This document shows positions 2,893-37,324 of a stretch of 64,000 bases of DNA, piece by piece. Origin of the DNA: a virus (Duplodnaviria > Caudoviricetes); the IMG/VR virus record IMGVR_UViG_3300014204_000111, positions 128,001-192,000 of that record; one strand, given 5' to 3'. Under the pieces are notes generated by a model. It searched no databases. It saw only the letters and a list, made by a program, of their open reading frames with translations, and was not told the DNA's origin. How positions within the stretch are numbered: position 1 is the stretch's first letter; each line of letters begins with the position of its first letter. The translations under genes were made by a program, and so were the position numbers.

Positions 2893-3627
2893 ATGAATAT
2901 TATTGCAGTAATGGGAGGGGCAGGAAGTGGAAAGTCAACATTTTCTACTATAGGTACATTATATCAATGGAATACAGAACAAGTAGGCGTTGGGCTAAAA
3001 AAGATAGATAAATATATTTATAAAACCTTTACAGATATTCCTTCATTAACAGAAACTTTTATTAATAATCCTGTTGAAATTTTAGAAAGTGGAGTTGTTA
3101 CTTCCTCTTTATCTCAAGAACAGATTAAAGTAATGAAAGATTGGTTCGAAGAAATCAAAATGTTTTATCCTAAAATGTATTTTCGAGATTTTATAAACAT
3201 TGTTTCTGAAGGATTGAATTGGTATAATAATACTCCAATTATTGTTCATAACGGGAAAAGAAGGAATGCTCTTCAATATATTGGAACATATATGAGAGAC
3301 AAGTATTCTCCAGATATTCATATTGATGGGGTAGTTAATTATATATATCAAACAAATTATCAAAATTGGGTGATTAGTAGTGTAAGATATTTGAATGAAA
3401 TTGAGGCTTTACAACGAGCCTCTCAATCATTTAAAGTAGTATTAATTAATGGTTCTAGAGAACCTTTGACAGAAGAAGCATCTCAACATCCAAGTGAAAC
3501 AGAATGGAAATCTTGGATAACAAATCATCCAGGTGAATATATTATAATTGATAATGACTCAACTCTTCATAATTTTATCATTAAATGTAGTAATTATTTT
3601 GGAGGACTTAATGCAAATTCGGACTAA
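2893..3627 (+). CDS. deoxynucleoside monophosphate kinase (T4 gp1-like)
   Basis: P-loop GGAGSGKST, RNALQYIGT-MR, ISSVRYLNE, HPSETE, IDNDST. Confidence 0.8.
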   Translation: MNIIAVMGGAGSGKSTFSTIGTLYQWNTEQVGVGLKKIDKYIYKTFTDIPSLTETFINNPVEILESGVVTSSLSQEQIKVMKDWFEEIKMFYPKMYFRDFINIVSEGLNWYNNTPIIVHNGKRRNALQYIGTYMRDKYSPDIHIDGVVNYIYQTNYQNWVISSVRYLNEIEALQRASQSFKVVLINGSREPLTEEASQHPSETEWKSWITNHPGEYIIIDNDSTLHNFIIKCSNYFGGLNANSD

Positions 3628-17181: not shown

Positions 17182-20100
17182 ATGACTCCAGAAGAATTAA
17201 TTGCTGCTAGACAATCTGTTCTTGACTCTTTACAAACATTTAGAAAAGAGAATAATCTTAGTCCGGTTTTAGACCCTAGGGGAGAGACTCCAGAAACTAG
17301 AAACACGCATAATATACAAAATATTTACCAACAAACACGTTATGGGCAAGAATATAGACATCCAGATAATCCATTTTTCCCTCCTGCTAATGAAGAAGAT
17401 TTTGGTCATGGAGGATTTGCTCCAGCATTAACACCAGAAGAAGAAGAGAAAATAAATATAAATGATACTTCTGAAACAGATTTACCTAATAATAATAGTA
17501 ATTTTTTATTTCCACAAGAATCTGTCAATCCTGAGATAAATAAAAAATGGAACGAGTACCAAAATAATATAAAAACAAGTAATATAGCTAAAATACATCG
17601 TTTAAACAAAAAACCATATGAACATCCTGATGAAACAATGTATCTAGGTGGAGAAAACTGGTCTCATGGAGGAATAAAAGATTTTATTCAACCATTAGAT
17701 GAAGGTATTTCCTCTTTATTTGATAAAATTACTTTTTCTAGAGATAATATAGAGAGAAACAAAGCAATAACAGAAAAATCTCCTCGATTTAATTCTAAAA
17801 AATTAATGCCAGAAACAGCTAATGCCTGGAGTAATTTTATAACTTCTCTTAAAATTCCTCATGGCGGAGATAATAATATTAATTTAAAAGAATTATTGAA
17901 AGAGACGGGATATGTTCACGGTCAATTAAATCCTGAAACAAAAGAAATATCTTGGAATGCAATACCTGAAAAAAAAGCGTGGACTCATAGTGATTTAACT
18001 AGAGAAATACCAGGAATAGTTTTAGGTGGTATACAAGGTATTGTACATCCTAAAACAAAAAAAGAACATTTAAATATTTCTTGGGTTGGTACTCCAGAAC
18101 ATTTAAGAAATCAAGGATTTGCTACTACATTAGAAACAGAAGCACATAAATTAGCAAAACAATCTGGATATGGAGGGCTATATTCTGATGAACAATTACA
18201 TCCTGAATTTACAAAACCAATTCATCAAAAACTAGGTAAACCATATACTCATTGGGGTAAAGAAGAATATTTCGGACATGGCGGAATGAAAGAAGATTAC
18301 ACTCATGTAGGTAATTATATAGGAGAAGTATTCAAACAACATCCAGATAGGAATATAGCTATTACACGCTTAAAAGATGAAGGTGTTATTAGTGGTAATC
18401 CTTCTTCTGGAAAAGATAAACAAGTATACTCTTTAAATACATTTTTACATCCTGAAACAGGCGATATTCAGCGTTTTAGAGGTGGAGTGCTTAAAGTAGT
18501 TCATCCTAATCAAGGTAGATATGCACAAGATGCTATGTTGGAAGAAGTTACTTCTTCTCAATTATATCCTAATGTAACTGTACCTGTTCATGCATATGAT
18601 AATCATAATTATAATTGGGCAATTGCGGATAAAGTAAAGCCTTTAATTTCTGGGTCAAGAGAGTATATTTTTGGGCAAGACCCAGATATGACAAGTTCAC
18701 AAAAATATGATGCAAATCGAAGAATAGAAGAAGGACAATCAAAATTAGAGGATTATTTAAATCGTTCTAGTCCAGAATTTTTACAAGAAATTTCTAAGAT
18801 AGGTGTTAAACCAGCAGAAACAGAGTGGGCTGCTAATTGGGGTATAACACCTGTTAGAAATGAACAAGGAAATGTTGTTAGAGACCCAAGAACCAAAAGA
18901 ACTCTTAAGAAGTTAGTCTTATTAGATTCTTCAAGAGCTGGACTAAATAAAGCTGTTCCTACTCCAGAAGAGATGATGAACACTATGTATGGACAAACTT
19001 TTGAAAAACTCCAAGAATTACAATTAATTGGTAAAAAACCTCTTGGAGAAGGAATGAGAAGAGTAGTATATCCTACTGCTAATCCAGGTATTGTTGCTAA
19101 AAGAGCAAAAATAAGTCCATCTGGTAAGGCTCATGTAGGAATGAACAATAATGGTGATGAAAGAAATAAATATTTAACTTTAAAAAATCAAGGATTAGAT
19201 AAACATGTAGCCGAAGTTTATGGATTAGTTCCTATTAAAGATAATAACATTCTTTTGCAAGAAAGAGTGCGTCCAATAGATATGGGAATTAAAGATGACG
19301 ATAAAATTTATGAAAAATATAACAAGCTTATTTCACCAGATATGCAAGATTTTTTTACTAATAGATTAGGAATTAATGATATTCATCCAGGAAATATGGG
19401 GATTAAAAAAGATAAAGAGACTGGAGAAAAATATCCTGTAGCTATTGATATTCCTAATAATATGGGTCATGGTGGAGAGAAATATGTTGGTCGAGATTAT
19501 GATAAAGTTTTAGAATGGCTAGAGAATACTCCGCGTGATGAAGTTACGGCACAATTAAAACCATTAGGTAGTGGTAGACATAGAGCAGTATATGCTTTTC
19601 CTAATAAATTTGCTAAAGAGCAATTTGGAGATATTTATCCAGAAATTGTATATAAAGACCCTGTGGCGTATCAAGGAACTCCTGCTAACGAAAGAGAAAT
19701 GAGAAATTGGCAACAATTAAAAGAACAGGGGAAGGCAGAATTAGCCGCTCCTGTTGTTGCACAAGCAAGATTAAAAGGTGGATATAGAGTAGGTATTTTA
19801 CAGAGAAGAATTAATCCTTTTCATGGTGATAAAGCCTTTGGTCAAAATACTCCGTGGGAAAGAGATGAAGAATTCACAAACGCAGGACTTAAAGATAGAG
19901 TTGGTTTTAATTTTGGTTTAACTAGAGTAATGCCAGATGGTTCATTAGGACAAAAAAGAACAGTGCAACATGATATAGCAGGTGCTCTTAACAAGGCAAT
20001 TAATGATTATGATGAAGTTGGAAATTTAATTAGAAATTCTAAACTAGAACAATTCAGTTCAATGCTCAAATTTATGGGACGAGAAGGTAAAGATAGAAGG

Positions 20101-23064
20101 GTTGGAACTTTAGACCATAAAATTGCTCAAAATTTATTAGGCAAAACTTATGCAGATTTTCTTAAAGTTAAACCAATAGTATTTAAAATTCCTATGGCAA
20201 ATAGTTGGGAACCTAACGCGAACAACATGGAGTATGAAAATTTTATGAATAAATATAAGGGACAAGAACTTGTTGTTCCAACTTTAGCTTCTTTTCATAC
20301 AAATGATAATAAGGTTATCAATATTCAACCTAAAGTAAATCCATTTAGGTCAGAAAAACAAATGATGCGGACTTTAACTTCTGATAGAGAGAATGAACTT
20401 TATGGAAAAACTGGATTACATGATTTAGGTTATCATAATTTAGCTAATACTAAAATAACAGATAATGGAGTATTAACCGACCATAATTCTGTAAGACCGT
20501 TTGATTATGTACATGGTGGAGATAAAAAGATTAGTTATGATACCAAGGGGCGTTTTATAAACTCTGGTGTTATGAGAGAAGTTCATCAATCTGCATTAAA
20601 TCCAAATCATGTAGTAAAAATTCCTTATGGAAGAGATGGAGAAGAGAATAATAGGGCAGAACGTGCTAGATATTTGAAATTAAAAAAATTAGGATTAACA
20701 GGAACTGGAGATTTAGAAAAAGATTTGACTATTGATATTCATGGTTTTGACCCTGAATCAGGTAGAAGTGTTGCTGAAAAAGCATATCCTATTCCGGGTT
20801 ATTTAGCAGAGTCAATATCTAGAGATTTAAGAACTGGGGGTAAAGCTGAGAATTTCCCTGAAACACTAAAAGATAGGGTACTACAATTACGGGAAATAAC
20901 GCGCAATCCTATGAATAGAAATATAAGTGATTTACATGGAAGTAATGCAATGTTTAATTCTCCATATAAAGGAGACTTCAATAATGAAGATGAATTTGTT
21001 AATTTTGCATCAAAACATTTAGTAACTGTAGATTTCAATGCAGGACATGATGGAGATAAAAATTCTTTATCTGAATTATTAAAAACTACTAAATATGTAT
21101 ATGGAGAGTTAAATCCTAAAACTAAGGCTATTAATTGGAATTCTATTGACCCAGTTGATGCTCTACCATTTAATCAGTTTACTAAGGAAAGTCCCCGTAT
21201 ATTATTGACCAATAGGTATGGTTATATACATCCTGAAACTAAGCAAGAGCATCTTACTATTTCTTGGGTTGGAGTTCCAGAAAAAATGAGAAAAAAGGGT
21301 TTTGCTACCGCATTAGAAACTGAAGCACATAAGTTAGCCAAACAGTCTGGATATGGAGGATTGTATTCTACACATCAAAATCATCCAGAGGCTACCAATT
21401 CTATTCATCAAAAATTAGGCAAAGTTATACAAGATAAAGAAGGTGCTGAATTTTTCAATAAAAGTAGAGAATATCATTGGCCTCTTGACCCTCTTGACCC
21501 TTCTTTGCCAACTAAACAGCCAATTACGGATATTAGTGCTTTACGTCCAGAATTTGCACAAGCAATTACAGAATTATTTAAACAAGCTAAACAACACGGA
21601 TATGATTTATATATTAGAGAAACATTTAGAACTAGACCTCGCCAAGATGAACTAAATAAGGAATGGCATGCTGGTCAAACTGGTTATGCACCTGATATTT
21701 ATGATGAACGTGGTAATTTAAATATTGATGATGCTAATTTTGCTCATGGACAAGGATTAGCTGCTGACATAGGAATTAAAGGATATGAAGAGAATGAAAC
21801 ACCTATTCACCATCAATTACATAAATTGCTTTTTAATATTAATCCTCAAATTATATCAGATAAGGTAATCCAGGGCGATGAAAATCATTATGAAGCATCA
21901 GACCAATATAGACAAAGTGTTGAAGTAGATTTAACTAAATCTCCATTTTATACTGAATATGTAAAGCGTTATGCTAATCCTACTCCGCAAGAATTGGATA
22001 AACCAGGAACTCAATTGCCAGAACAAAGTATGTTAAAAAGTATATTCGAAGCATTTGGTGTCGTTAAGGCTCTTTATTCTGGCCCAGACGATTCTTATGC
22101 ATATAGAGAAGGAGAAAATCCTCATCTAGATAATTCAAGAGCAACACTAGAAGCTATTAAAAATACTAAACTAGGTAAAAGAAGTAATTTTACAATTAAA
22201 AAACAATCAACATCTCCTCAAGTGTCGTTATCTCAATCTCCAGTTGTAACTCAACCAAGCCCTACTTTGTCTCAAGTAAATTTTACGTCACCTCAGAAAA
22301 TAGCTCCTCAATTATCACCTGATTTAGCTAAAGTTGCCACTGGATATAGTGATATATTAAGTAAATTAAGAGAACAACCAACTAGAAGTATGCCTCGACA
22401 AACAGATACATCAGGTGGATATGAATCTCCTATTCTTCCTAAACCTTCTCAGTTAGGTATGAGTGTACCTATGAGTCAATCTAAATTAAGAGATACTGGT
22501 CAAGGTTATACAGATAAACCTGGGGATAGAAGTCCAATTGTTCATCAATTAGGACAGAATCTTTTTGGAGAGACAGAATCTCAACCTAAAAATCTTAATT
22601 TATTCGGAGAATCATTTCCAGAGATACCTTCAACTCAAGAAACACAACCTAATGTTGGTTCTTTATTTGATGCTTCTTCACCATCTTTATTTGACTCTAA
22701 TACTATTCAAAATATGAGATATGGAGAAGCTGATATTCAATTAAAGAGAGAGAAAGAACAAGAAGCTATAAGACAAGCTCAACTTGAAGAACAAAAACAA
22801 CAAGAACTTCAAAGTAGACAAGCTCAAATACAATCAATTTTTAATAAAAATCCTCGTGATGTTGGAGGATTTGCCTATGATAAACTTAAAGAAGAGAATA
22901 AATTAGGTGGATTTGGAGGTATTTTAGCTCAAATAGCTGATAAAATTATTGGCCCTGCAACAGCTCCTCTTGGTGGCTTCAGCTTCGAAGAACAAAGAGC
23001 TAAAAATATGCTTGCTCAAGAAAAAAGAAATTTAGCAAATGAAATTAAAAAACGTCAAATATAG
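17182..23064 (+). CDS. multi-enzyme polyprotein: GNAT, 5 kinase-fold modules, GNAT, M15 peptidase, low-complexity tail
   Basis: GAGGA RBS before ATG 17182; GNAT motif A (LRNQGFAT, MRKKGFAT); kinase motifs (GEG..VVY, VAK, DIHPGN, ID); M15 motifs (R-R-RQ, HGQGLAAD, DENH). Confidence 0.75.
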   Translation: MTPEELIAARQSVLDSLQTFRKENNLSPVLDPRGETPETRNTHNIQNIYQQTRYGQEYRHPDNPFFPPANEEDFGHGGFAPALTPEEEEKININDTSETDLPNNNSNFLFPQESVNPEINKKWNEYQNNIKTSNIAKIHRLNKKPYEHPDETMYLGGENWSHGGIKDFIQPLDEGISSLFDKITFSRDNIERNKAITEKSPRFNSKKLMPETANAWSNFITSLKIPHGGDNNINLKELLKETGYVHGQLNPETKEISWNAIPEKKAWTHSDLTREIPGIVLGGIQGIVHPKTKKEHLNISWVGTPEHLRNQGFATTLETEAHKLAKQSGYGGLYSDEQLHPEFTKPIHQKLGKPYTHWGKEEYFGHGGMKEDYTHVGNYIGEVFKQHPDRNIAITRLKDEGVISGNPSSGKDKQVYSLNTFLHPETGDIQRFRGGVLKVVHPNQGRYAQDAMLEEVTSSQLYPNVTVPVHAYDNHNYNWAIADKVKPLISGSREYIFGQDPDMTSSQKYDANRRIEEGQSKLEDYLNRSSPEFLQEISKIGVKPAETEWAANWGITPVRNEQGNVVRDPRTKRTLKKLVLLDSSRAGLNKAVPTPEEMMNTMYGQTFEKLQELQLIGKKPLGEGMRRVVYPTANPGIVAKRAKISPSGKAHVGMNNNGDERNKYLTLKNQGLDKHVAEVYGLVPIKDNNILLQERVRPIDMGIKDDDKIYEKYNKLISPDMQDFFTNRLGINDIHPGNMGIKKDKETGEKYPVAIDIPNNMGHGGEKYVGRDYDKVLEWLENTPRDEVTAQLKPLGSGRHRAVYAFPNKFAKEQFGDIYPEIVYKDPVAYQGTPANEREMRNWQQLKEQGKAELAAPVVAQARLKGGYRVGILQRRINPFHGDKAFGQNTPWERDEEFTNAGLKDRVGFNFGLTRVMPDGSLGQKRTVQHDIAGALNKAINDYDEVGNLIRNSKLEQFSSMLKFMGREGKDRRVGTLDHKIAQNLLGKTYADFLKVKPIVFKIPMANSWEPNANNMEYENFMNKYKGQELVVPTLASFHTNDNKVINIQPKVNPFRSEKQMMRTLTSDRENELYGKTGLHDLGYHNLANTKITDNGVLTDHNSVRPFDYVHGGDKKISYDTKGRFINSGVMREVHQSALNPNHVVKIPYGRDGEENNRAERARYLKLKKLGLTGTGDLEKDLTIDIHGFDPESGRSVAEKAYPIPGYLAESISRDLRTGGKAENFPETLKDRVLQLREITRNPMNRNISDLHGSNAMFNSPYKGDFNNEDEFVNFASKHLVTVDFNAGHDGDKNSLSELLKTTKYVYGELNPKTKAINWNSIDPVDALPFNQFTKESPRILLTNRYGYIHPETKQEHLTISWVGVPEKMRKKGFATALETEAHKLAKQSGYGGLYSTHQNHPEATNSIHQKLGKVIQDKEGAEFFNKSREYHWPLDPLDPSLPTKQPITDISALRPEFAQAITELFKQAKQHGYDLYIRETFRTRPRQDELNKEWHAGQTGYAPDIYDERGNLNIDDANFAHGQGLAADIGIKGYEENETPIHHQLHKLLFNINPQIISDKVIQGDENHYEASDQYRQSVEVDLTKSPFYTEYVKRYANPTPQELDKPGTQLPEQSMLKSIFEAFGVVKALYSGPDDSYAYREGENPHLDNSRATLEAIKNTKLGKRSNFTIKKQSTSPQVSLSQSPVVTQPSPTLSQVNFTSPQKIAPQLSPDLAKVATGYSDILSKLREQPTRSMPRQTDTSGGYESPILPKPSQLGMSVPMSQSKLRDTGQGYTDKPGDRSPIVHQLGQNLFGETESQPKNLNLFGESFPEIPSTQETQPNVGSLFDASSPSLFDSNTIQNMRYGEADIQLKREKEQEAIRQAQLEEQKQQELQSRQAQIQSIFNKNPRDVGGFAYDKLKEENKLGGFGGILAQIADKIIGPATAPLGGFSFEEQRAKNMLAQEKRNLANEIKKRQI
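17872..21423 (+). repeat. intragenic duplication of the GNAT module (about 17872-18240 and 21064-21423)
   Basis: shared strings such as LETEAHKLAKQSGYGGLYS, ISWVG-PE and IHQKLGK. Confidence 0.9.
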
Positions 23065-25344: not shown

Positions 25345-28197
25345 ATGAGAAATTTTAACATCTTAGACATTTTTAAACTAGATTATATATCTGACCGTAA
25401 ATTACGTCAAATGGATAAGGTCATTAGGACTCCCGTTAAAACACGTTCATTAACAACAGAGTTTAGACCTCACGACCGAGACCGTGGGCAGGAAATATCT
25501 GGAGAATATTCATTTCAAATACCTTTTAGACAACAAAAACAGTTATATCAAAGAAATCCGTGGGTTAAGCGTTGTATTGACCATATTTCTTCTGCTGCTG
25601 CTGGATTAAATTGGCATATTATACCAAAAGAAAAATACAGAGAAGAAATGGAAACTGACCAACATATGCAAACAGCTAAGGTATTGGCAGAAGAATTGTT
25701 TAATCGCCCAAATACTTTTAAACAATCATTTAGCGACTTAATTAAAATGATTGTTAGAGATGTTAAAATTATGGATGCTGCTGCGATTGAGAAAGGGAGA
25801 GATTCATTTGGAAGATTAATTACTCTTAAGGTAATTGATGCTTCTACACTTAAAATTGATATTGATGAACGAGGACAAATAATAAAATACGTACAAGAAT
25901 TTAGAGGTAATCAACTTCATGGTATGTATACTATTCCTAATGAACTAGCAAATGCGAGAGACCCACATGGAAGTAGAGGAATTGATTTTGACCCTACTGA
26001 AGTAATATATCTTAGGCTTAATCCTCGCTCAGAAGGGCCATATGGTTCTTCTCCTATAGCATCTTTAGTAGAAGCAATTTATGCTGATTTAGCAACTGAT
26101 ATTAATCTTTATCATTTTCTTAATACTGGTGGTGTTAATACTGGTTATATGAGTGTTGGCCCAAATATTGACAATGACCAAATTGAAAGAATCAAGATTA
26201 AGTTTCGTCGCTCTTTATCTCCTGGTATGAGATATGAATTTCCTATTATATCATCAGAAGATGAAGTTAAATGGGAATCAATGCAAGTTACTAATGTTGA
26301 AGCACAAATGGCTGAATTACAAGGAGAACTAAGAAATAAAATTTTAGCAGTTCTTTCTATTCCACCTAATGAATTAGGTTTATCTGGAAATACTAGAGGT
26401 CAAGTTTATAGTCAGCAAGATGTGTTCTGGGGTAATGCTATTATTCCTATGATGAAATCTATTGCTGAAAAATTTACAAATGAAATTTTAGCGGAATTTG
26501 ACGATAGATTAATGTTTGAATTTTTACCTCCTTCTGAGTATCAATATGAAGCAATTATGGCTAGAATTACAACTCTTGAACAAGAAGGACTAATTGAAGA
26601 TGATTTAAAGTATCAATGGTTAGGCTTAACTCCTCCAAAAGAACCCACTTATGTTCAAAAGAAAAAAGAACTAGAACTTAGAAAATTAGCTGTTGATGTC
26701 TATATGGTAGAAATGCAAGCACTTGCTCAGTATAAGAATAAAAAATACATCTTAGATGAACCTCGTTTGCAATATCAACAATTACAAGCTGAAACTCAGC
26801 AAATGATGGGTGGAGGACAAGCCTCTCAAGGTGAATTAGACATTCAAAATGCTCAAATAGATGTTCAGAAAAAACAAATAGAGCTTGAAAAACTGAGAAT
26901 TATGTCTGACCAGAAGATGTTTCCAGATGAGATGGAACTAAAGAAACTTCAAATTCAAGCACAAATTCTTGAAGCTCAAAGCATGATGGCTCAGAATGGA
27001 AGTAGTTCAAATACTCCTCAAGCTCCATTAACAATGGGCGAAATTGTACATGGTATACAAAGTGGAGAAATAAATACACAAACTCTAGCAGTTATGATTG
27101 AAAAACATTTGGTTGACCCTGAACAGTTAAAACTCATTAATGTTGCAGATAGAACTGTCTCAGGTATAATAAAGGATGCAGAAGAAGTTGCTACTCAAAA
27201 ACAAGCTATTCAATTTAAGAAAGAAAAAATAAATATGGATAGACAAAAAGAGCAAATGAAATATCAGCAAGCTGGCGCTCAACATCAAAACAAAATGGCA
27301 GATGCTCAATTTGACCAACAAAAGATGGGAATTCAAAATCAAGGTGAGTTACAAAATGTTATTGCTCAGCAAGAATTAGCTAGAAATCAGTTAGGTATGA
27401 GACAACAACAAATGGAACAACGTGGACGCTTGCAACAGCAAAATATGCAAGCTCAACAAGCTCTTGGACAACAAAAGACCCAAGTTCAACAACAACAGTT
27501 GTCTCTTCAGCAACAGCAAATGCAACAAATGGCCCAAAATCCTCAAATGGCTCAACAAGGAATGCAACCTCAGCAACAAAATTCTGCTAATTCTCAACAA
27601 CAATTACAGGAATTAAGACAATTAACTATGAATAAATCTATTTCAGATAGATTAAATTTCTTTAAAACCTTACCTAATATTTTAGGAAATGGACAAATTA
27701 CTGATTCTAAAATAAGTGAACCTCATAAATCTAGAATAAGTCCAGATATTACTCATTTTGAGAATGATGTACATGATTTTGATTTAAGTAAACATGTAGA
27801 GAATAAAATAGAATCATTAGAATCTAGAAATCCTGCTGTGTCTATGTCTACTCCTTCTTTAATAAAAAATCAAGCTATGGGTGTTGATGTCAAAGATAAC
27901 AATCCTGTAGATATGGCTATTAAACAAATTTCCGAAGTTGGAGAAATGGATGCTATTCATCCTAATACAGGGATAAAGAGCAATCAGAATGTTTTAGGTC
28001 AACATACAACTGGAGATGGAGCGCATAGTGCAACAACTATTTCTAGTCCATCTCAAGAAGGAATTGCTGCAATTAGACCTCTTAATATAAAGAAGCCTTT
28101 ATCATTCCAAGCAACTGACCCTCAACCAGGACATGCCAAGCTTGATATAGATTCAGCGCAAAAGAAGCATAATACTAAACCAAAAAGTGAAATATAA
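25345..28197 (+). CDS. portal protein (HK97-like) with a long Q-rich C-terminal extension
   Basis: WVKRCIDHIS, LFNRPN, EVIYLR..P...YGSSPI, ILAVLSIPP..LG, AIIPM; position before protease and capsid genes. Confidence 0.88.
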   Translation: MRNFNILDIFKLDYISDRKLRQMDKVIRTPVKTRSLTTEFRPHDRDRGQEISGEYSFQIPFRQQKQLYQRNPWVKRCIDHISSAAAGLNWHIIPKEKYREEMETDQHMQTAKVLAEELFNRPNTFKQSFSDLIKMIVRDVKIMDAAAIEKGRDSFGRLITLKVIDASTLKIDIDERGQIIKYVQEFRGNQLHGMYTIPNELANARDPHGSRGIDFDPTEVIYLRLNPRSEGPYGSSPIASLVEAIYADLATDINLYHFLNTGGVNTGYMSVGPNIDNDQIERIKIKFRRSLSPGMRYEFPIISSEDEVKWESMQVTNVEAQMAELQGELRNKILAVLSIPPNELGLSGNTRGQVYSQQDVFWGNAIIPMMKSIAEKFTNEILAEFDDRLMFEFLPPSEYQYEAIMARITTLEQEGLIEDDLKYQWLGLTPPKEPTYVQKKKELELRKLAVDVYMVEMQALAQYKNKKYILDEPRLQYQQLQAETQQMMGGGQASQGELDIQNAQIDVQKKQIELEKLRIMSDQKMFPDEMELKKLQIQAQILEAQSMMAQNGSSSNTPQAPLTMGEIVHGIQSGEINTQTLAVMIEKHLVDPEQLKLINVADRTVSGIIKDAEEVATQKQAIQFKKEKINMDRQKEQMKYQQAGAQHQNKMADAQFDQQKMGIQNQGELQNVIAQQELARNQLGMRQQQMEQRGRLQQQNMQAQQALGQQKTQVQQQQLSLQQQQMQQMAQNPQMAQQGMQPQQQNSANSQQQLQELRQLTMNKSISDRLNFFKTLPNILGNGQITDSKISEPHKSRISPDITHFENDVHDFDLSKHVENKIESLESRNPAVSMSTPSLIKNQAMGVDVKDNNPVDMAIKQISEVGEMDAIHPNTGIKSNQNVLGQHTTGDGAHSATTISSPSQEGIAAIRPLNIKKPLSFQATDPQPGHAKLDIDSAQKKHNTKPKSEI

Positions 28198-28208
28198 GGA
28201 ATAAATAA

Positions 28209-28412
28209 ATGGAGAAAAGCACGGAAGAAATTTTAAAAGAAGATGATACTTCTATGGGAACTGGAGAAGTTAATCCTCATAGTCCAACTAGAAGATTTAC
28301 TTGTTTTAAAAGAAAGCAAGAATTTAATATGTCAATGCAAGTTGGCTCTTTAACTCCACCAATTTGCGGAGTTCCTGAAAATGTGCCTACAGAAGTTATT
28401 CCAAGTGAATAA
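28209..28412 (+). CDS. 67-aa protein containing a copy of a capsid N-terminal segment
   Basis: AGGA RBS; QEFNMSMQVGSLTPPICGVP versus capsid QGFNVSAQVGSLTAPIIGSP. Confidence 0.75.
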   Translation: MEKSTEEILKEDDTSMGTGEVNPHSPTRRFTCFKRKQEFNMSMQVGSLTPPICGVPENVPTEVIPSE

Positions 28413-28417
28413 AAATG

Positions 28418-28434
28418 GGGTAAAATAGGATATG
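28418..28434 (+). promoter_or_regulatory. leaderless promoter GGG-TAAAAT-N5-ATG
   Basis: recurrent motif. Confidence 0.7.
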
Positions 28435-29040
28435 ACCGAAGTATATAACGAACAAGATTTAGGGCATGGAGATAATTTTTATTGGCCTAAATTACATAGA
28501 TTTTTACATCAAGTTAAATGGTGCAAACAAACACACGGAGAAGATTCGTTTGATTACGAACAACAAATTGTAAAACTTGCACAATTAGTAGCTGCTATGG
28601 GTGATATGAGAGATTTACCTATAGAAGAGTTATATCATTATTTCCACGGTCATCACAAAGCTGATATTAATAATGCTGTTGAACTAATTCAAACTCAAGA
28701 TAAGATGATGTCTCCTAGAGAAGGAAATCTTGAAGAAAGATATAATAATAAATGGGTTGTTAGAGATACAGAGAATTATATGGATGGATTTGGTAGACCT
28801 TGGTTATCTCAAGGATATAACCAATCTACTGATTTAAAAAGAGAACAAGTATTAGATTATAACACCCCTGTAGGTCTTCATAGACCAGATGCAGATACAT
28901 ATATTGAAAGTTATCCCGAACATCCTCATAATGAAAAATGGGAAGAGAAATTAAAGCAGAATAGCTACCTCCGTATGTTGTTCACCAAAGAAGAACGTGC
29001 CGAGGCTAAACGTAATATGGAAAAATACGGAGAACAATAA
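28432..29040 (+). CDS. putative internal head protein
   Basis: between portal and protease; LGHG motif at residues 10-13. Confidence 0.6.
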   Translation: MTEVYNEQDLGHGDNFYWPKLHRFLHQVKWCKQTHGEDSFDYEQQIVKLAQLVAAMGDMRDLPIEELYHYFHGHHKADINNAVELIQTQDKMMSPREGNLEERYNNKWVVRDTENYMDGFGRPWLSQGYNQSTDLKREQVLDYNTPVGLHRPDADTYIESYPEHPHNEKWEEKLKQNSYLRMLFTKEERAEAKRNMEKYGEQ

Positions 29041-32922: not shown

Positions 32923-32928
32923 AAGTGT

Positions 32929-32945
32929 GGGTAAAATACTGTATG
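32929..32945 (+). promoter_or_regulatory. leaderless promoter GGG-TAAAAT-N5-ATG
   Basis: recurrent motif; moves the protease start to 32943. Confidence 0.7.
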
Positions 32946-34922
32946 GCTAATAAAACCTTTATAACTGGTGAAAATGTTAAAAGTCTTGTAAAGATGGAAT
33001 ATGACGGAGATGTTATCTTTGAAGGTATATTCGCATCTAATGATAGAGATATTCAAGGCGATATTATTGATAAAACAATGCTTAAGCAAATGAATAATAA
33101 TCTTAACACTGGTGCGCCTGTTTTCTTAAATCACTTTTATCATAGACCGGCTGTTGGTAAAGTTTTAAAATCAGAATATATGGAAGACCCAAATACAGGA
33201 AGAGCTTGGATTTGGGGGCGTGGTGTTGTTGATTCTGCTGATGCTGATTTTAAAAGACAAGTAGCAGATGGTAGATATAAATATATCTCGGTTGGTGGAC
33301 ATTTAGATGATTATGAAATGGAAAAGTCTGCCGATGGGAAATCTACTCGTCGTTGTAAAAGTGGAAAAGCTCTTGAGATATCTTTAACCGCAGTTCCTAT
33401 TAATATATCTGCTGGTATGACATTAGCAAAAGGTCAAATTAACGATGAAATTACAGACCAAATTATAGAAAATAATAACTTAATGAAAGCAATCTTCTCA
33501 ATGGACGAGGATGAGCAAGGTAAATTAACTAAACTAAATTATCACGAAGTAGAATTTATCCCCATATCGGAGCAAAGTATGTTGCAAAAAGGTGAAGTTG
33601 GAGAATTCAAGAAGTTAGACGAAAAACCTAGCAAATCAAGTATTGAATTCGGACATGGTACAAAAGTTGGAGAAGAAGACTTAGAAAAGTATTATAATCC
33701 AAAGGTTTCTGGCTTTATAACCAGCAAAGACGTAGACCCTCTTAATGTTTCTGACGAACATTCTCAAGAATTCTTAAGCAAACATAAGACAAGTGTTATT
33801 GAATCAAATGAAAAACATGATGATTTTGGTTTTGTTGATAAAAACAGCGAATCTTTCTTAAATAAAACTTCGATTTCTGACCCCGCTGCTCCTAACAAGT
33901 ATGACCCAGGTAACTCTGTAGATAAAAATTCTAACTCTTGGATTCTTTCTCAGGCTAAAACATTTGTTTCTGGTTTAGATTCTATGCAAAAAGCAGTATT
34001 AGTTGATTTAATTTTCCACGATTTTAATACTGATAAATTATATGCAACATCTGGAGAAAGCCAGCCAAACGTCATTCACCGTTTATTACATCAAAAGAAT
34101 TCTTATGCTAAAGCTGGTGGATTTTCTAATATTATTGGTCAAGAACTTACAGCATTATTAAAGTCTCTTGATTGGCGTAATTCTGATAACAATATGTATG
34201 ATAGATTAGTATTAGACCATATTCTTGGCCCAAATCATATTGAAGAGGTAAAAGATTATTTAACTAAGTCTATGTATGGTTTTGCTGGAGACAAAGACCC
34301 TAATGAACCAGATGGCGATGAAATGGGACAAGACCCTTCAATGGGTGGTTCTCCTATGGGACAAGACCCAAGTATGGGTGGAGCACCTATGGGACAAGAC
34401 CCTTCAATGGGTGGAGCACCTGCAATGCCCGCTCCTGGTGCAGAAGGTACTGACCCAAGTATGGGCGGTGGCGAAGACCCAACAATAGGCGCAGTTTCTC
34501 AAATTGTTGAAAAATATGCTCAGCAAGCAGGAATTGACCCCAATTCTATTCAACAACTATTACAAGGTGGAGATGTAACTGGCGCAGCTAAGGCCGTTAT
34601 TCAAGCATTACAGCAATCTAATCCTGACTTAGCTAATCAAATGTTAGATGAACTAAACCAAACCCTACAGGGTGGTGGTTCTGAACAAGCAACACCTGGA
34701 GGTGGTGAAGCACCTGGCGCAGCTCCCCAATCAATGATGATGGGTAAATCAATTAATCCAGAAGAAGCTGTTGCTGCATATAGAGAAGCGAGAAAAGAAC
34801 AGTTTACAAAGTCAAGAGTTTTCTCTGAACAACCTGCTCAATCTCGATATAATAGTAAACCAGCCAGCGGCGCTGACTTGGCAATGGCCTCTTGGATAGG
34901 TCAGTATAATATCGAAAGATAA
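32943..34922 (+). CDS. HK97-type prohead protease fused to a scaffold-like region
   Basis: FEGIFAS..RDIQGDII, FLNH (His), AVGKV, YISVGG (Ser), LEISLTAVP-N; long acidic low-complexity C-terminal part. Confidence 0.88.
   Translation: MANKTFITGENVKSLVKMEYDGDVIFEGIFASNDRDIQGDIIDKTMLKQMNNNLNTGAPVFLNHFYHRPAVGKVLKSEYMEDPNTGRAWIWGRGVVDSADADFKRQVADGRYKYISVGGHLDDYEMEKSADGKSTRRCKSGKALEISLTAVPINISAGMTLAKGQINDEITDQIIENNNLMKAIFSMDEDEQGKLTKLNYHEVEFIPISEQSMLQKGEVGEFKKLDEKPSKSSIEFGHGTKVGEEDLEKYYNPKVSGFITSKDVDPLNVSDEHSQEFLSKHKTSVIESNEKHDDFGFVDKNSESFLNKTSISDPAAPNKYDPGNSVDKNSNSWILSQAKTFVSGLDSMQKAVLVDLIFHDFNTDKLYATSGESQPNVIHRLLHQKNSYAKAGGFSNIIGQELTALLKSLDWRNSDNNMYDRLVLDHILGPNHIEEVKDYLTKSMYGFAGDKDPNEPDGDEMGQDPSMGGSPMGQDPSMGGAPMGQDPSMGGAPAMPAPGAEGTDPSMGGGEDPTIGAVSQIVEKYAQQAGIDPNSIQQLLQGGDVTGAAKAVIQALQQSNPDLANQMLDELNQTLQGGGSEQATPGGGEAPGAAPQSMMMGKSINPEEAVAAYREARKEQFTKSRVFSEQPAQSRYNSKPASGADLAMASWIGQYNIER
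34323..34421 (+). repeat. three tandem 33-bp repeats encoding MGQDPSMGG(S/A)P
   Basis: units start at 34323, 34356, 34389; looser copies follow. Confidence 0.9.
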
Positions 34923-34933
34923 GGAACTAAATA

Positions 34934-36214
34934 ATGAATCGTAGACAACCATTTGTGAAGAGCAATCAGAATTTCCAAAAAGCAGGAGATTTTCCTACTA
35001 CATGGGGAGATTCAGGGAGTGTTCCCGCTGATTACCAAACAGTGTATAATCCTGGGCAAGGCTTTAACGTCTCTGCTCAAGTAGGAAGTCTTACAGCTCC
35101 TATTATTGGTAGCCCTGGTGTTATCAACTCAATCGGTGGTAGAGACTTCTTATCAATTGATGTAACGCAAGAATATTTGCCTTATATCAACCAAGCGTCT
35201 TATTTGCGTAAGCACCACAGAGTCGTTCCTATGGACGGCCCAAGCAAGTATATTCCTAAGATTGCTGGCCCAGCAAAAGTGTATGCAACTGGTGAAGGTC
35301 AGGTTATGAGTCAAACCGTAATCCCAACCACAACTGTTGCGTTGATTGCAAAAGCAATGGCAGTTTCTTTCGCAATTCCTCGTGAAATCGCGGATGACTC
35401 TATCATCAATTTGCTTCCTGCAATTAGAGAACACTTAGTTGACCGTTTCGTTCTTGCAGAAGAAGAAGCCTTCTTATTAGGTGATGAAAACACTTTCGCT
35501 GGTAGTGGTAGCGTTCGTTCTATGTTTAACGGATTGAGTGTCGGTGGTGAGTATAACTCCCTTGGCTCTTCAGATGTTATGGCAAATAACGGTGCTGAAT
35601 TAATTAACGCCGCTGGAAACCCATTCTCAACTGAGCATGTTAACGAAGCTCTTGAGAAGTTGGACTTGCTAGGACAAAATCCTGACCATATTCTAGGTAT
35701 TATTTCTCGTAAGCATGCAAGAACCCTACGTGGTGACTCTACGCTTTTACGTCAATTAACTAACTTTGGCCCAAGCCCAACCTTTAGAACTGGTCGTATA
35801 GGCCAAATCTTTGGTGTTAACTTGGTTCAAACTAACTTGTTGAATCCTAATGCGATGGTTCCAAGTGATGATGGTCAATGGTGGGGCTTCTTGGGCTTTG
35901 GTTCTGAAACTCCCGTTGAAATGACAACTCCTGGTGGAAATGACCCTGACCTTTTAAGTGATTATGGTACTGGTAACAGAATCTATTCATATTATGGTTC
36001 AGAAGCTCTTGCTAAGGCGCATCAGACAACTCTTACTGAAGCTTTGTTTGTCCATAAGGATAGCGCAGTTATCGGTGATAGACAGAAATTGGAAATCGAA
36101 ATGTCTGCTCACACTCTATTAGCGGCTCGTTCGCTCTTGCTTGTGGCGCATGAGAGAATTGCATTTGCTTTACAATTACGTAGAGGTATTTGCAAGGTCA
36201 TCCAGTTGGGTTGA
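34934..36214 (+). CDS. major capsid protein (HK97 fold)
   Basis: GEG, IPREIADDSII, EEEAFLLGD, FNGL, GQIFGVNLV, ERIAF; follows the protease; terminator downstream. Confidence 0.92.
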   Translation: MNRRQPFVKSNQNFQKAGDFPTTWGDSGSVPADYQTVYNPGQGFNVSAQVGSLTAPIIGSPGVINSIGGRDFLSIDVTQEYLPYINQASYLRKHHRVVPMDGPSKYIPKIAGPAKVYATGEGQVMSQTVIPTTTVALIAKAMAVSFAIPREIADDSIINLLPAIREHLVDRFVLAEEEAFLLGDENTFAGSGSVRSMFNGLSVGGEYNSLGSSDVMANNGAELINAAGNPFSTEHVNEALEKLDLLGQNPDHILGIISRKHARTLRGDSTLLRQLTNFGPSPTFRTGRIGQIFGVNLVQTNLLNPNAMVPSDDGQWWGFLGFGSETPVEMTTPGGNDPDLLSDYGTGNRIYSYYGSEALAKAHQTTLTEALFVHKDSAVIGDRQKLEIEMSAHTLLAARSLLLVAHERIAFALQLRRGICKVIQLG

Positions 36215-36216
36215 TG

Positions 36217-36233
36217 CATGTATCATCTTACCC
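36217..36233 (-). promoter_or_regulatory. antisense-oriented GGG-TAAGAT-N5-ATG motif pointing into the capsid gene
   Basis: reverse complement of CATGTATCATCTTACCC. Confidence 0.4.
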
Positions 36234-36250
36234 ATTCCATCAGATTATTC

Positions 36251-36278
36251 AAGAGGCTGTTAAAAGCCTCTTTTTTTT
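36251..36278 (+). terminator. intrinsic terminator after the capsid gene
   Basis: AAGAGGCT-GTTAAA-AGCCTCTT followed by T run. Confidence 0.88.
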
Positions 36279-36319
36279 GGGTATATAGAGTATACGAAAA
36301 ATTATACAGGAGTATAACG

Positions 36320-37324
36320 ATGCAGTGGATTCAACAAGAAGACGATTTGCTTAAAGCAAAATTTGCGACAACAGGTACATATGATTTACTACCCTTATTT
36401 CCTGGCAGAACTTGGAAATCTTTGGTACATCGTGCAACAAAATTGGGATTATCTAAAACTAAAGAATGTAGAACTAATTTAACTAGAAAAGCCTCATCAT
36501 TGTCTCAAAATGATATTCTTTTAATGAAAGATAAGTATTCTAAAATTGAACAATATAAATGGCAATATTTAGCAGGAATGATAGATTCAGATGGTTGTAT
36601 TCGTTTATACAAAAATACAGCAAATTATTCTCCAGTTATATATGTGACAAATATATCAGAATCACTTATAGATTGGTTAGTAAATAATTTTGGTGGTTCT
36701 AAAAATAATATCAGACATAAAACGGGAGATTCAATTAATGGTATTACAGTGAAGAGCAGAAGACAGGCTTTTAGTTGGAAACTAACAGGTTTAGAAAATG
36801 TGGTAGAATTACTTAAATATCTAAAAAGTGAATTAATTATAAAGAGACAGCAAGCAGAAATTATTCTTGATGCTCACTCTCAAGGCTGGTATTCTATTAA
36901 TTTAGAACCTGTTTATACAAAATTAATTCAATCTAAAAAAGAATATGACATTAATAATTCTTGCTCTTCAGTTATTACAGATGCTTATCTAGCGGGAATG
37001 ATTGATGGAGATGGATGTATTATATTAAGATACAATAATTATGACTTTATTAATGCTATGTTAGATATATCCAATGAAAGTATAATTTTAAATAAAAAAT
37101 TATTAGATTTAGGATGGAATCAATTTATGAATAGAGGATTAATACATAATACAATTTATAAACAAAAAGACTGTCTTTCTTTGCTCTTAAACATTAGCCC
37201 TTATCTCATCATCAAAAAAGAGCAAGCGGAATTAGTTATTGAATTCTTACAAAACAAAAAAACCCTTGATAAAGAAGGTCAAGAGGATTATAAAAATCGT
37301 CTATCTCTTCTAAAACAAGGGTAA
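36320..37324 (+). CDS. free-standing double-motif LAGLIDADG homing endonuclease with N-terminal Myb/HTH-like region
   Basis: YLAGMIDSDG and YLAGMIDGDG; AGGAG RBS before ATG 36320. Confidence 0.9.
   Translation: MQWIQQEDDLLKAKFATTGTYDLLPLFPGRTWKSLVHRATKLGLSKTKECRTNLTRKASSLSQNDILLMKDKYSKIEQYKWQYLAGMIDSDGCIRLYKNTANYSPVIYVTNISESLIDWLVNNFGGSKNNIRHKTGDSINGITVKSRRQAFSWKLTGLENVVELLKYLKSELIIKRQQAEIILDAHSQGWYSINLEPVYTKLIQSKKEYDINNSCSSVITDAYLAGMIDGDGCIILRYNNYDFINAMLDISNESIILNKKLLDLGWNQFMNRGLIHNTIYKQKDCLSLLLNISPYLIIKKEQAELVIEFLQNKKTLDKEGQEDYKNRLSLLKQG

What the first reader, a model, noticed from the sequence alone, without database searches (positions are those of the whole stretch)
28209..28412. 67-aa gene after the portal copies a capsid N-terminal segment
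Seen: QEFNMSMQVGSLTPPICGVP (28317-28376) matches capsid residues 42-61 QGFNVSAQVGSLTAPIIGSP (35057-35116) at 14 of 20 positions, with unrelated flanks. Established: HK97-fold N-arms contact neighbouring subunits. Inference: a mimic that fills N-arm sites left empty at the portal vertex, or an assembly regulator.
Basis: partly seen in the sequence, partly recalled or inferred. Interest (0 to 1): 0.7.

Follow-up and report, generated by a model that had tools for sequence, protein, structure and literature searches.

The report
Mini-gene copying capsid N-terminal segment
A 221-kb uncultivated phage and its few known relatives keep a tiny gene right behind the portal gene whose only conserved part is a protein-level copy of a short segment near the start of the major capsid protein, so it probably works in head assembly by mimicking that segment, though its partner is unknown.

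Summary
ORF67 (28209-28412) matches capsid residues 42-61 at 14 of 20 positions. BLASTP gives E=2e-7, and a profile built from capsids alone finds ORF67 at E=2e-9 among 5,786 six-frame ORFs.

It is not a decaying duplication. Synonymous sites are saturated. A small acidic ORF carrying a version of the motif sits between the portal gene and the same downstream gene in four other related jumbo-phage contigs that share no detectable DNA similarity where tested. The motif occurs exactly twice per genome.

In the capsid, the segment lies in a highly conserved N-terminal extension that is disordered in the monomer model. It sits just upstream of the ordered HK97-fold N-arm. In HK97 proheads the equivalent position docks as a strand on the P-domain.

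My best reading (about 0.4) is a T4 gp67-like small prohead assembly protein. It would engage the partner of the capsid N-terminus, most likely the protease-scaffold core, by mimicry.

No binding partner was shown. The scan has not seen this family before. It did note analogous, non-homologous mini-copies on other DNA, and I verified one: T4 gp61.1 against gp23, E=6e-9.

The parts
28209..28412 (+). ORF67, a 67-aa acidic mini-protein and member of a five-member positional family
   Evidence: Its ATG directly follows an in-frame stop, and an AAGGAA sequence lies 8 nt upstream. No antisense ORF of 40 aa or more overlaps it. Syntenic small ORFs occur in L002, L004, L005 and L009. These ORFs are each other's top non-self hits.
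28299..28376 (+). Capsid-like motif in ORF67, residues 31-56 (TCF...FNMSMQVGSLTPPICGVP)
   Evidence: It is the only element conserved across the small-ORF family.
28377..28409 (+). Acidic C-terminal tail after G-x-P-E (ENVPTEVIPSE); capsids continue G-x-P-G...GGRDFL instead
   Evidence: Alignments. All five small ORFs are net acidic, from -2 to -8.
25345..28197 (+). Portal gene (950 aa) directly upstream
   Evidence: Pfam Phage_portal, E=6.6e-34.
28432..29040 (+). Conserved downstream gene (ORF202 family), used as a synteny anchor
   Evidence: Alignment A3. Relatives occur in L005, L007 and L009.
32925..34922 (+). Protease-scaffold fusion (665 aa), candidate partner of the motif
   Evidence: PHROG head maturation protease hits. 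Weak Peptidase_S78 and S78_2 hits in three orthologues. His70/73 and Ser122 are invariant. The top fold hits are T4 gp21 and herpesvirus proteases, though weak at E about 0.03.
34934..36214 (+). Major capsid protein gene (426 aa, HK97 fold; closest solved relative is T5 pb8)
   Evidence: Pfam Phage_capsid. PDB profile search finds T5 pb8 at E=1e-34. AF2 model has pLDDT 77.5.
35039..35116 (+). Original motif in the capsid, residues 36-61 (TVYNPGQGFNVSAQVGSLTAPIIGSP)
   Evidence: Eight positions within residues 36-61 are invariant across 8 capsids of 48-83% identity, and G62, N65 and GGRDFL 68-73 just after it are invariant too. The segment has pLDDT below 50 in the monomer model. It is absent from the 33%-identical capsid P0015.
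34952..34984 (+). Candidate maturation sites FVK|S (residues 7-10) and FQK|A (residues 14-17), upstream of the motif
   Evidence: F-phi-K-[SAG] is present in 7 of 8 capsids, and P0014 has FVKK. It has the same form as the T5 pb8 site LK|A, read from precursor and mature chains. Cleavage has not been measured.

Best explanation
ORF67 is a small head-assembly protein whose only conserved element is a free-standing copy of the capsid protein's N-terminal docking segment.

Proposed mechanism. The segment has an amphipathic strand-like core (phi-N-phi-S-phi) followed by P-phi-phi-G-x-P. It binds the same receptor that the capsid N-terminus binds in the procapsid. I think that receptor is most likely the protease-scaffold core (ORF665). 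ORF67 would therefore be drawn into, or act on, the portal-nucleated core. There it would tune capsid-scaffold contacts, in the way T4's small core protein gp67 affects head formation and shape, and it would be expelled or degraded at maturation.

Shown: the gene is real, conserved in position, selected at the protein level, and limited to one shared motif. The motif lies in a flexible, very conserved capsid extension next to the N-arm.

Inferred: that it binds anything, which partner it binds, and its fate.
For: The motif match is significant and non-circular.

Five syntenic small ORFs carry the motif. They find each other and capsids as top hits among 5,786 ORFs.

Among identical residues, the same codon is used in 5 of 15 cases, against about 6.5 of 14 expected from codon usage. 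No DNA homology is left, so the protein sequence is under selection.

There are exactly two copies per genome, so the motif is not a general tag.

The small ORFs are as close to capsid motifs as to each other. The L009 copy carries the same 8-residue spacer as the capsids of its subclade.

The capsid segment is disordered in the monomer model, so it must act on another surface.

N-terminal regions of capsid proteins commonly bind scaffolds in proheads (PMC9546572).

T4 gene 67 has the same position (its start overlaps the portal stop), a similar size (80 aa) and an acidic tail. It encodes a core protein that affects head shape (PMC9958956, PMC9026906).

T4 gp61.1 is an independent mini-copy of gp23 residues 57-93, E=6e-9.

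A protease-scaffold fusion is encoded in the same operon.
Against: No partner has been identified.

ORF67 has no sequence similarity to gp67 or gp61.1.

ORF67 lacks the candidate cleavage motifs of this phage at conserved positions. It has no phi-x-H-G-G, and K-S occurs only in the window's copy.

A protein that binds the scaffold at the capsid's own site would compete with the capsid, so its benefit needs explaining.

The four other small ORFs are not individually significant against the capsid-only profile.

Only five genomes are known.
Confidence: 0.4

Rival explanations
1. Portal-vertex filler. The free peptide supplies the capsid N-terminal strand at sites that have no donor subunit because the portal replaces a penton. 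These would be either five sites on the surrounding hexons or the portal positions left unoccupied by capsid N-termini. The peptide stays in the particle at about 5-12 copies.
For: ORF67 has only one conserved element and no cargo domain, as expected for a plug. The gene abuts or overlaps the portal gene in 4 of 5 phages. In HK97 proheads the residues just upstream of the N-arm add a strand to the P-domain sheet, and capsid N-terminal towers occupy only 10 of 12 portal positions (PMC10275583). P74-26 has a dedicated portal vertex protein in 5 copies, whose N-arm adds a strand to the capsid P-domain inside the shell (PMC12407722).
Against: Gene adjacency does not give copy number: T4 gp67 is coupled to the portal gene but is present at about 340 copies (PMC9958956). 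The small ORFs have no second conserved motif that could hold the portal. In HK97 the helix-turn-strand is also present under portal-adjacent hexons, so no vacancy is evident there.
Confidence: 0.25
2. Protease-directed decoy or timer. The motif is the handle by which the maturation protease engages the capsid N-terminus. The free copy would act as a competitive pseudo-substrate or inhibitor that delays cleavage until the shell is complete.
For: The motif lies between conserved candidate cut sites and the N-arm. Proteases bind substrates as extended strands. T4 encodes a dedicated inhibitor of its prohead protease (Inh, annotated). In 80alpha the capsid protein, the scaffold and L27 share an N-terminal sequence because one protease cuts them all (PMC5744158).
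Against: The motif has no Lys-[SAG] or His-Gly site inside or at its end, and it is not shared by other putative substrates. The conserved change from G-x-P-G to G-x-P-E has no known meaning for an S78 protease.
Confidence: 0.12
3. Anti-defence decoy. The peptide would occupy a host immune sensor that recognises the capsid N-terminus.
For: Only general knowledge that several bacterial defence systems sense major capsid proteins. The small ORFs evolve faster than the capsid motif while staying similar to it.
Against: The gene sits inside the late head operon between the portal and head genes in all five phages. No defence-related family matched.
Confidence: 0.05
4. Functionless relic of an old partial duplication of the capsid gene 5' end, or a chance match.
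For: The ORF is very short, and no family is known in Pfam or PHROGs.
Against: The ORF stays open, has its own start, and keeps the motif in five genomes whose capsids are only 55-70% identical to the window's (no blastn hit between L002 and L009, the one pair tested). Synonymous sites are saturated while 14 of 20 residues are kept. The profile E-value is 2e-9.
Confidence: 0.03

Closest known systems
T4 gp67 (and gp68), small prohead core proteins
   Same: The gene lies immediately after the portal gene with a coupled start. The protein is small (80 versus 67 aa) and has an acidic tail. It sits in the head operon upstream of the protease, scaffold and capsid genes. gp67 shows a faint, non-significant echo of the end of the gp23 propeptide.
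   Different: There is no sequence similarity. gp67 belongs to a T4-type core with a gp21 protease that cuts at L/I-x-E. ORF67's resemblance to its own capsid is strong and specific, whereas gp67's is not significant (E=0.6).
T4 gp61.1 (uncharacterised 54-aa protein)
   Same: It is a free-standing mini-copy of the capsid protein's N-terminal region, matching gp23 residues 57-93 with 17/37 identical and E=6e-9. It also has a charged tail.
   Different: It is not homologous to ORF67. It lies among replication genes rather than in the head operon. Its copy spans the known E65|A66 cut. I found no paper on its function.
HK97 gp5 scaffold-domain helix-turn-strand (residues 76-103)
   Same: This is a capsid N-terminal segment just upstream of the N-arm and of the position of the maturation cut. 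It docks as a beta-strand on the P-domain sheet inside the prohead (PMC10275583). The motif here occupies the equivalent position, as inferred from the alignment to the closest solved capsid, T5 pb8, and from my own by-eye register against the HK97 sequence.
   Different: In HK97 it is part of the capsid chain only. No separate gene copy is known, and there is no sequence similarity.
P74-26 portal vertex protein (PVP, gp34)
   Different: PVP has a globular domain similar to T7 gp2, is not a copy of its capsid protein, and is added after expansion. ORF67 has no globular domain.
SaPI1 CpmB versus the 80alpha scaffolding protein
   Same: A small protein carries a copy of an assembly protein's binding motif and competes for the same site on the partner (PMC5644958).
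   Different: In that case the copied motif is the scaffold C-terminus, and the mimic belongs to a parasite of the phage. Here the copied motif is the capsid N-terminus, and the mimic is the phage's own gene.

Membership tests
Paralogue of the N-terminal extension of this clade's HK97-fold capsid protein | Significant sequence match to the capsid N-terminal motif | tested here: met
   BLASTP E=2e-7. Capsid-only profile E=2.2e-9.
Paralogue of the N-terminal extension of this clade's HK97-fold capsid protein | The match is maintained in orthologues of the small ORF | tested here: inconclusive
   The motif is visible in all five small ORFs. Only the window's copy is individually significant against capsids. 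The others link through small-ORF pairs.
T4 gp67-type small prohead core protein | Gene directly downstream of the portal gene, in the head operon | tested here: met
   T4 layout.
T4 gp67-type small prohead core protein | Sequence homology to gp67 | tested here: not met
   No alignment at E<=100.
T4 gp67-type small prohead core protein | Incorporated into the prohead core and degraded by the prohead protease | not testable with these tools
   This needs prohead and virion mass spectrometry.
T4 CTS-bearing internal proteins | N-terminal capsid targeting sequence of about 10 aa, followed by an L/I-x-E cut site | not tested
   The N-termini of the five small ORFs are not conserved with one another. 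I made no comparison with the T4 CTS consensus, and no CTS or L/I-x-E site is apparent by eye. The protease is S78-like rather than a gp21 orthologue by sequence.
General prohead-protease substrate tag of this phage | The motif is shared by several head proteins | tested here: not met
   A profile search of the whole 221-kb genome finds only the capsid and ORF67. ORF67 lacks the phi-x-H-G-G linker motif.
P74-26 PVP-like portal vertex protein | Five copies at the portal aperture, with a strand added to the capsid P-domain | not testable with these tools
   This needs cryo-EM.
Portal C-terminal extension by frameshift | Open frame continuous with the portal gene | tested here: not met
   In all five phages an in-frame stop lies 0-5 codons upstream of the ATG.

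The most novel reading that the evidence does not exclude
Free-standing copies of the tip of the capsid protein's N-terminal arm may form a convergent class of phage mini-proteins. Candidates are this family, T4 gp61.1 and perhaps gp67. [quoted passage not shown]
Probability: 0.2. Interest if true: 0.85.

Novelty: new variant of a known kind. Interest (0 to 1): 0.58.

Why it matters
How a 12-fold portal, a scaffold core and a 5-fold shell find each other at the start of head assembly is still only partly understood. It is least understood in jumbo phages with very large capsids.

A phage-encoded peptide that is essentially just the capsid's N-terminal docking segment points to the functional hot spot of that segment. 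It also offers a natural competitor peptide for dissecting assembly.

An unrelated mini-copy exists in T4 (gp61.1, verified here). The principle can therefore be tested in a model phage with existing genetics and cryo-EM.

If the function is ordinary (a small core protein), the value is a first functional context for an orphan gene family.

Tried and rejected
Complex prediction. The capsid body (residues 62-426, two copies) was folded with ORF67, each supplied with an alignment. The result was no verdict (score 0.00), which is evidence neither way.

Searches that found nothing:
- Capsid against the GenBank phage collection.
- Single-sequence scans of IMG/VR with the capsid and the portal.
- ORF202-family scan of IMG/VR.
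- Capsid-clade scan of prokaryote genomes.
- ORF67 against 5.8 billion proteins, which found only itself. A profile of four members found only the known members.
- Pfam and PHROGs for ORF67 and its relatives.
- PDB sequence search for the protease domain.

Ideas rejected:
- Recent duplication or gene conversion, because synonymous sites are saturated.
- A frameshift fusion to the portal.
- A general capsid-targeting or cleavage tag, because there are only two copies per genome.
- A twin-arginine export signal. T-R-R-F occurs only in the window's copy, no hydrophobic stretch follows it, and other members lack RR.
- Homology to T4 gp67 or gp61.1.

Inconclusive tests:
- The more distant L007 clade has a small ORF in the same slot, but it is basic and shows no significant echo of its own capsid.
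- Strict cognate matching between a small ORF and its own capsid. In the fixed-column comparison, 2 of 3 small ORFs scored best with their own capsid. In the Smith-Waterman comparison, none of 4 did. The number of pairs is too small.
- The AF2 monomer did not dock the N-terminal segment on its own body.

A correction to my own recollection: in T4 the N-whisker that anchors portal to capsid belongs to the portal, not the capsid (PMC7136217).

Full report
**What is there**

The window is bases 128001-192000 of a 220,861-bp virus record with direct terminal repeats. The head module reads, all on the + strand:
- portal (25345-28197; Pfam Phage_portal E=6.6e-34)
- ORF67 (28209-28412)
- a conserved 202-aa gene
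- several orphan head genes
- a 665-aa protease-scaffold fusion (32925-34922)
- the major capsid protein (34934-36214; Pfam Phage_capsid)
- a LAGLIDADG homing endonuclease

ORF67's ATG directly follows an in-frame stop. An AAGGAA sequence overlaps the portal stop 8 nt upstream. No antisense ORF of 40 aa or more overlaps it.

**Is the match real?**

The two 20-residue stretches are identical at 14 positions, at the coordinates given. The statistics are:
- BLASTP gives 16/31 identical, E=2e-7.
- Against the six-frame window, the capsid is ORF67's only non-self hit, E=1.9e-5.
- A profile built only from the N-termini of eight capsids finds ORF67 at E=2.2e-9 among 5,786 six-frame ORFs.

It ends sharply after G-x-P. 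The capsid continues G-V-I-N-S-I-GGRDFL into the fold, while ORF67 continues E-N-V and an acidic tail.

**Not a decaying duplication**

The DNA of the two copies is only about 53% identical over the core. Ser and Leu switch codon families. Among 15 identical degenerate residues, 5 use the same codon. Independent draws from head-gene codon usage would give about 6.5 of 14. The resemblance is therefore held at the protein level only.

**Conservation**

ORF67 has no relative of similar length among 5.8 billion proteins. The capsid has seven relatives at 55-81% identity and one at 47%.

Contigs or a viral genome carrying four of these lineages all have a small ORF in the same slot, directly behind the portal and before the ORF202-family gene. 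In L004 an inserted HNH gene lies between the portal and the small ORF.

| Locus | Coordinates | Length |
|---|---|---|
| L002 | 2372-2545 | 57 aa |
| L004 | 2400-2534 | 44 aa |
| L005 | 166-327 | 53 aa |
| L009 | 3089-3268 | 59 aa |

L002 and L009 share no blastn-detectable DNA.

Each small ORF has its own ATG within 0-5 codons of an in-frame stop. Each lies in a different frame from the upstream gene or is separated from it by a stop. All are net acidic.

All five carry a recognisable version of the motif: T-x-[YFH], then phi-[NAL]-phi-[ST]-phi, then P/D-phi-phi-G-x-P-[EQ]. Nothing else in them is conserved.

Individually, the four other small ORFs are not significant against the capsid-only profile. 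They are, however, each other's top non-self hits among 5,786 ORFs: W and L002 at E=0.003, L004 and L005 at E about 0.025, and L002's three best non-self hits are three of the other four small ORFs. With the strict synteny, I take the family as real.

A profile of both kinds of copy finds exactly two hits per genome and nothing else in the 221-kb genome. The motif is therefore not a general packaging or cleavage tag.

The small ORFs are about as close to capsid motifs as to one another. The L009 copy carries the same roughly 8-residue spacer as the capsids of its subclade. This suggests the capsid sequence, or a shared partner, constrains them. With four pairs, covariation cannot be proved.

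**Where the segment sits in the capsid**

Residues 36-73 are among the most conserved in the clade, with 16 invariant positions. The 33%-identical capsid P0015 lacks the motif.

More distant HK97-fold capsids begin to align only at about residue 65-70. AF2 gives pLDDT below 50 for residues 1-76, and the fold starts at helix 75-88. The segment is thus a flexible, lineage-specific extension just upstream of the ordered N-arm, not the N-arm proper.

The closest solved capsid is T5 pb8. Its maturation site (LK|A, read from the precursor and mature chains) maps about 9 residues before the GG-DFL equivalent, which is the C-terminal end of the motif here. No Lys-[SAG] exists at that point.

Seven of the eight capsids instead conserve F-phi-K-[SAG] at residues 7-10 (P0014 has FVKK). 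Several have phi-Q-K-A immediately before T-V-Y. Earlier notes of this scan had proposed this cleavage code.

If the code holds, the motif is the tip of the mature capsid protein. The L004 small ORF begins M-P-T-V-Y, exactly there. If cleavage is instead at the HK97/T5-equivalent position, the motif is the end of a 61-residue propeptide. Only mass spectrometry can decide.

In HK97 Prohead I, the residues at the equivalent position (K92-G97, just before K103|S104) add a strand to the P-domain sheet on the capsomer interior. The capsid N-terminal towers contact 10 of 12 portal subunits (PMC10275583).

In T4, the first 40 residues of mature gp23 lie inside the unexpanded head, probably on the scaffold core. 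They later form inter-capsomer contacts. Binding of capsid N-termini to scaffolds is described as a common feature (PMC9546572).

**Mechanism**

ORF67-family proteins have one conserved element and no cargo domain. They can only act by occupying the site that receives the capsid's N-terminal segment.

My preferred reading (0.4) is a gp67-like small prohead assembly protein that engages the protease-scaffold core through this mimicry. T4 gene 67 has the same position (start overlapping the portal stop), a similar size and an acidic tail. It encodes an essential core protein that affects head shape and is degraded at maturation (PMC9958956, PMC9026906, PMC7411985).

ORF665 is a plausible partner. 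Its N-terminus matches head-maturation proteases and keeps invariant His and Ser. Its model's best fold hits are T4 gp21 and herpesvirus proteases, though weakly.

It has a genuine precedent in the P74-26 portal vertex protein, present in five copies, whose N-arm adds a strand to the capsid P-domain sheet (PMC12407722). The argument from gene position is weak, because gp67 is coupled to the portal gene yet present at about 340 copies.

A protease decoy or timer (0.12) has two precedents. T4 encodes Inh, an inhibitor of its prohead protease. In 80alpha, the capsid protein, the scaffold and L27 share a processing motif (PMC5744158).

An anti-defence decoy (0.05) and a functionless relic (0.03) are unlikely.

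**A wider pattern**

Earlier follow-ups of this scan reported non-homologous mini-copies of capsid N-termini on other DNA. I tested one. T4 gp61.1 (54 aa) matches gp23 residues 57-93 at 17/37 identical, E=6e-9. It shows no similarity to ORF67. I found no paper describing this or any capsid-N-arm mimic.

Motif mimicry among head-assembly proteins is known from the other side: SaPI1 CpmB copies the scaffold C-terminus (PMC5644958).

I therefore rate this as a new variant of a known kind. It is real, conserved and mechanistically suggestive, but it has no demonstrated partner.

Noticed in passing
window 36218-37324; L002 11443-13005; L004 1657-2400: Homing endonuclease genes flank the head genes in this clade. 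A LAGLIDADG gene follows the capsid gene in the window, an HNH gene follows the capsid gene in L002, and an HNH gene is inserted between the portal and the small ORF in L004. The small ORF survives the L004 insertion intact.
   Followed up: partly
window 35066-35074 (capsid N45-V46-S47) and 28326-28334 (ORF67 N40-M41-S42): The motif contains an N-x-S/T sequon that is invariant in all 8 capsids. It is present in 3 of 5 small ORFs (FNMS, FNLS, VNTT) and absent in two (FAMS, FLMS). Whether it is modified is unknown.
   Followed up: no
L012 1782-2021 versus L011 1946-3508 (phage T4): T4 gp67 is the small core protein encoded right after the portal gene. It shows a weak, non-significant echo of gp23 residues 51-78, which cover the propeptide end and the cleavage site: 11/28 identical, E=0.6.
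   Followed up: partly
L007 237-425: In the more distant clade (capsid 33% identical), the same slot holds a 62-aa ORF that is strongly basic rather than acidic. It contains N-P-F-I-K-K, reminiscent of the P-F-[IV]-K-[SA] start of the window-clade capsids. It has no significant similarity to its own capsid.
   Followed up: partly
window 34276-34480: The scaffold part of ORF665 contains tandem G-Q-D-P-S-M-G-G-[SA]-P repeats.
   Followed up: no
window 26900-28197: The portal is 950 aa, against about 705-755 aa in relatives. The excess is a long Gln-rich C-terminal extension.
   Followed up: no
window 17182-23064: The 1960-aa polyprotein noted by others has recurring phi-x-H-G-G linkers (FGHGG, WSHGG, IPHGG, MGHGG, YVHGG). 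The same G-H-G motif occurs near the N-terminus of the ORF202 protein. ORF67 has none.
   Followed up: partly
ORF67 family versus capsids: The length of sequence before the motif roughly tracks between each small ORF and its own capsid: 30 versus 35 in the window, 20 versus 19 in L002, 18 versus 21 in L009, and 2 versus 17 in L004. The window pair aligns weakly from K-S near the N-terminus.
   Followed up: partly
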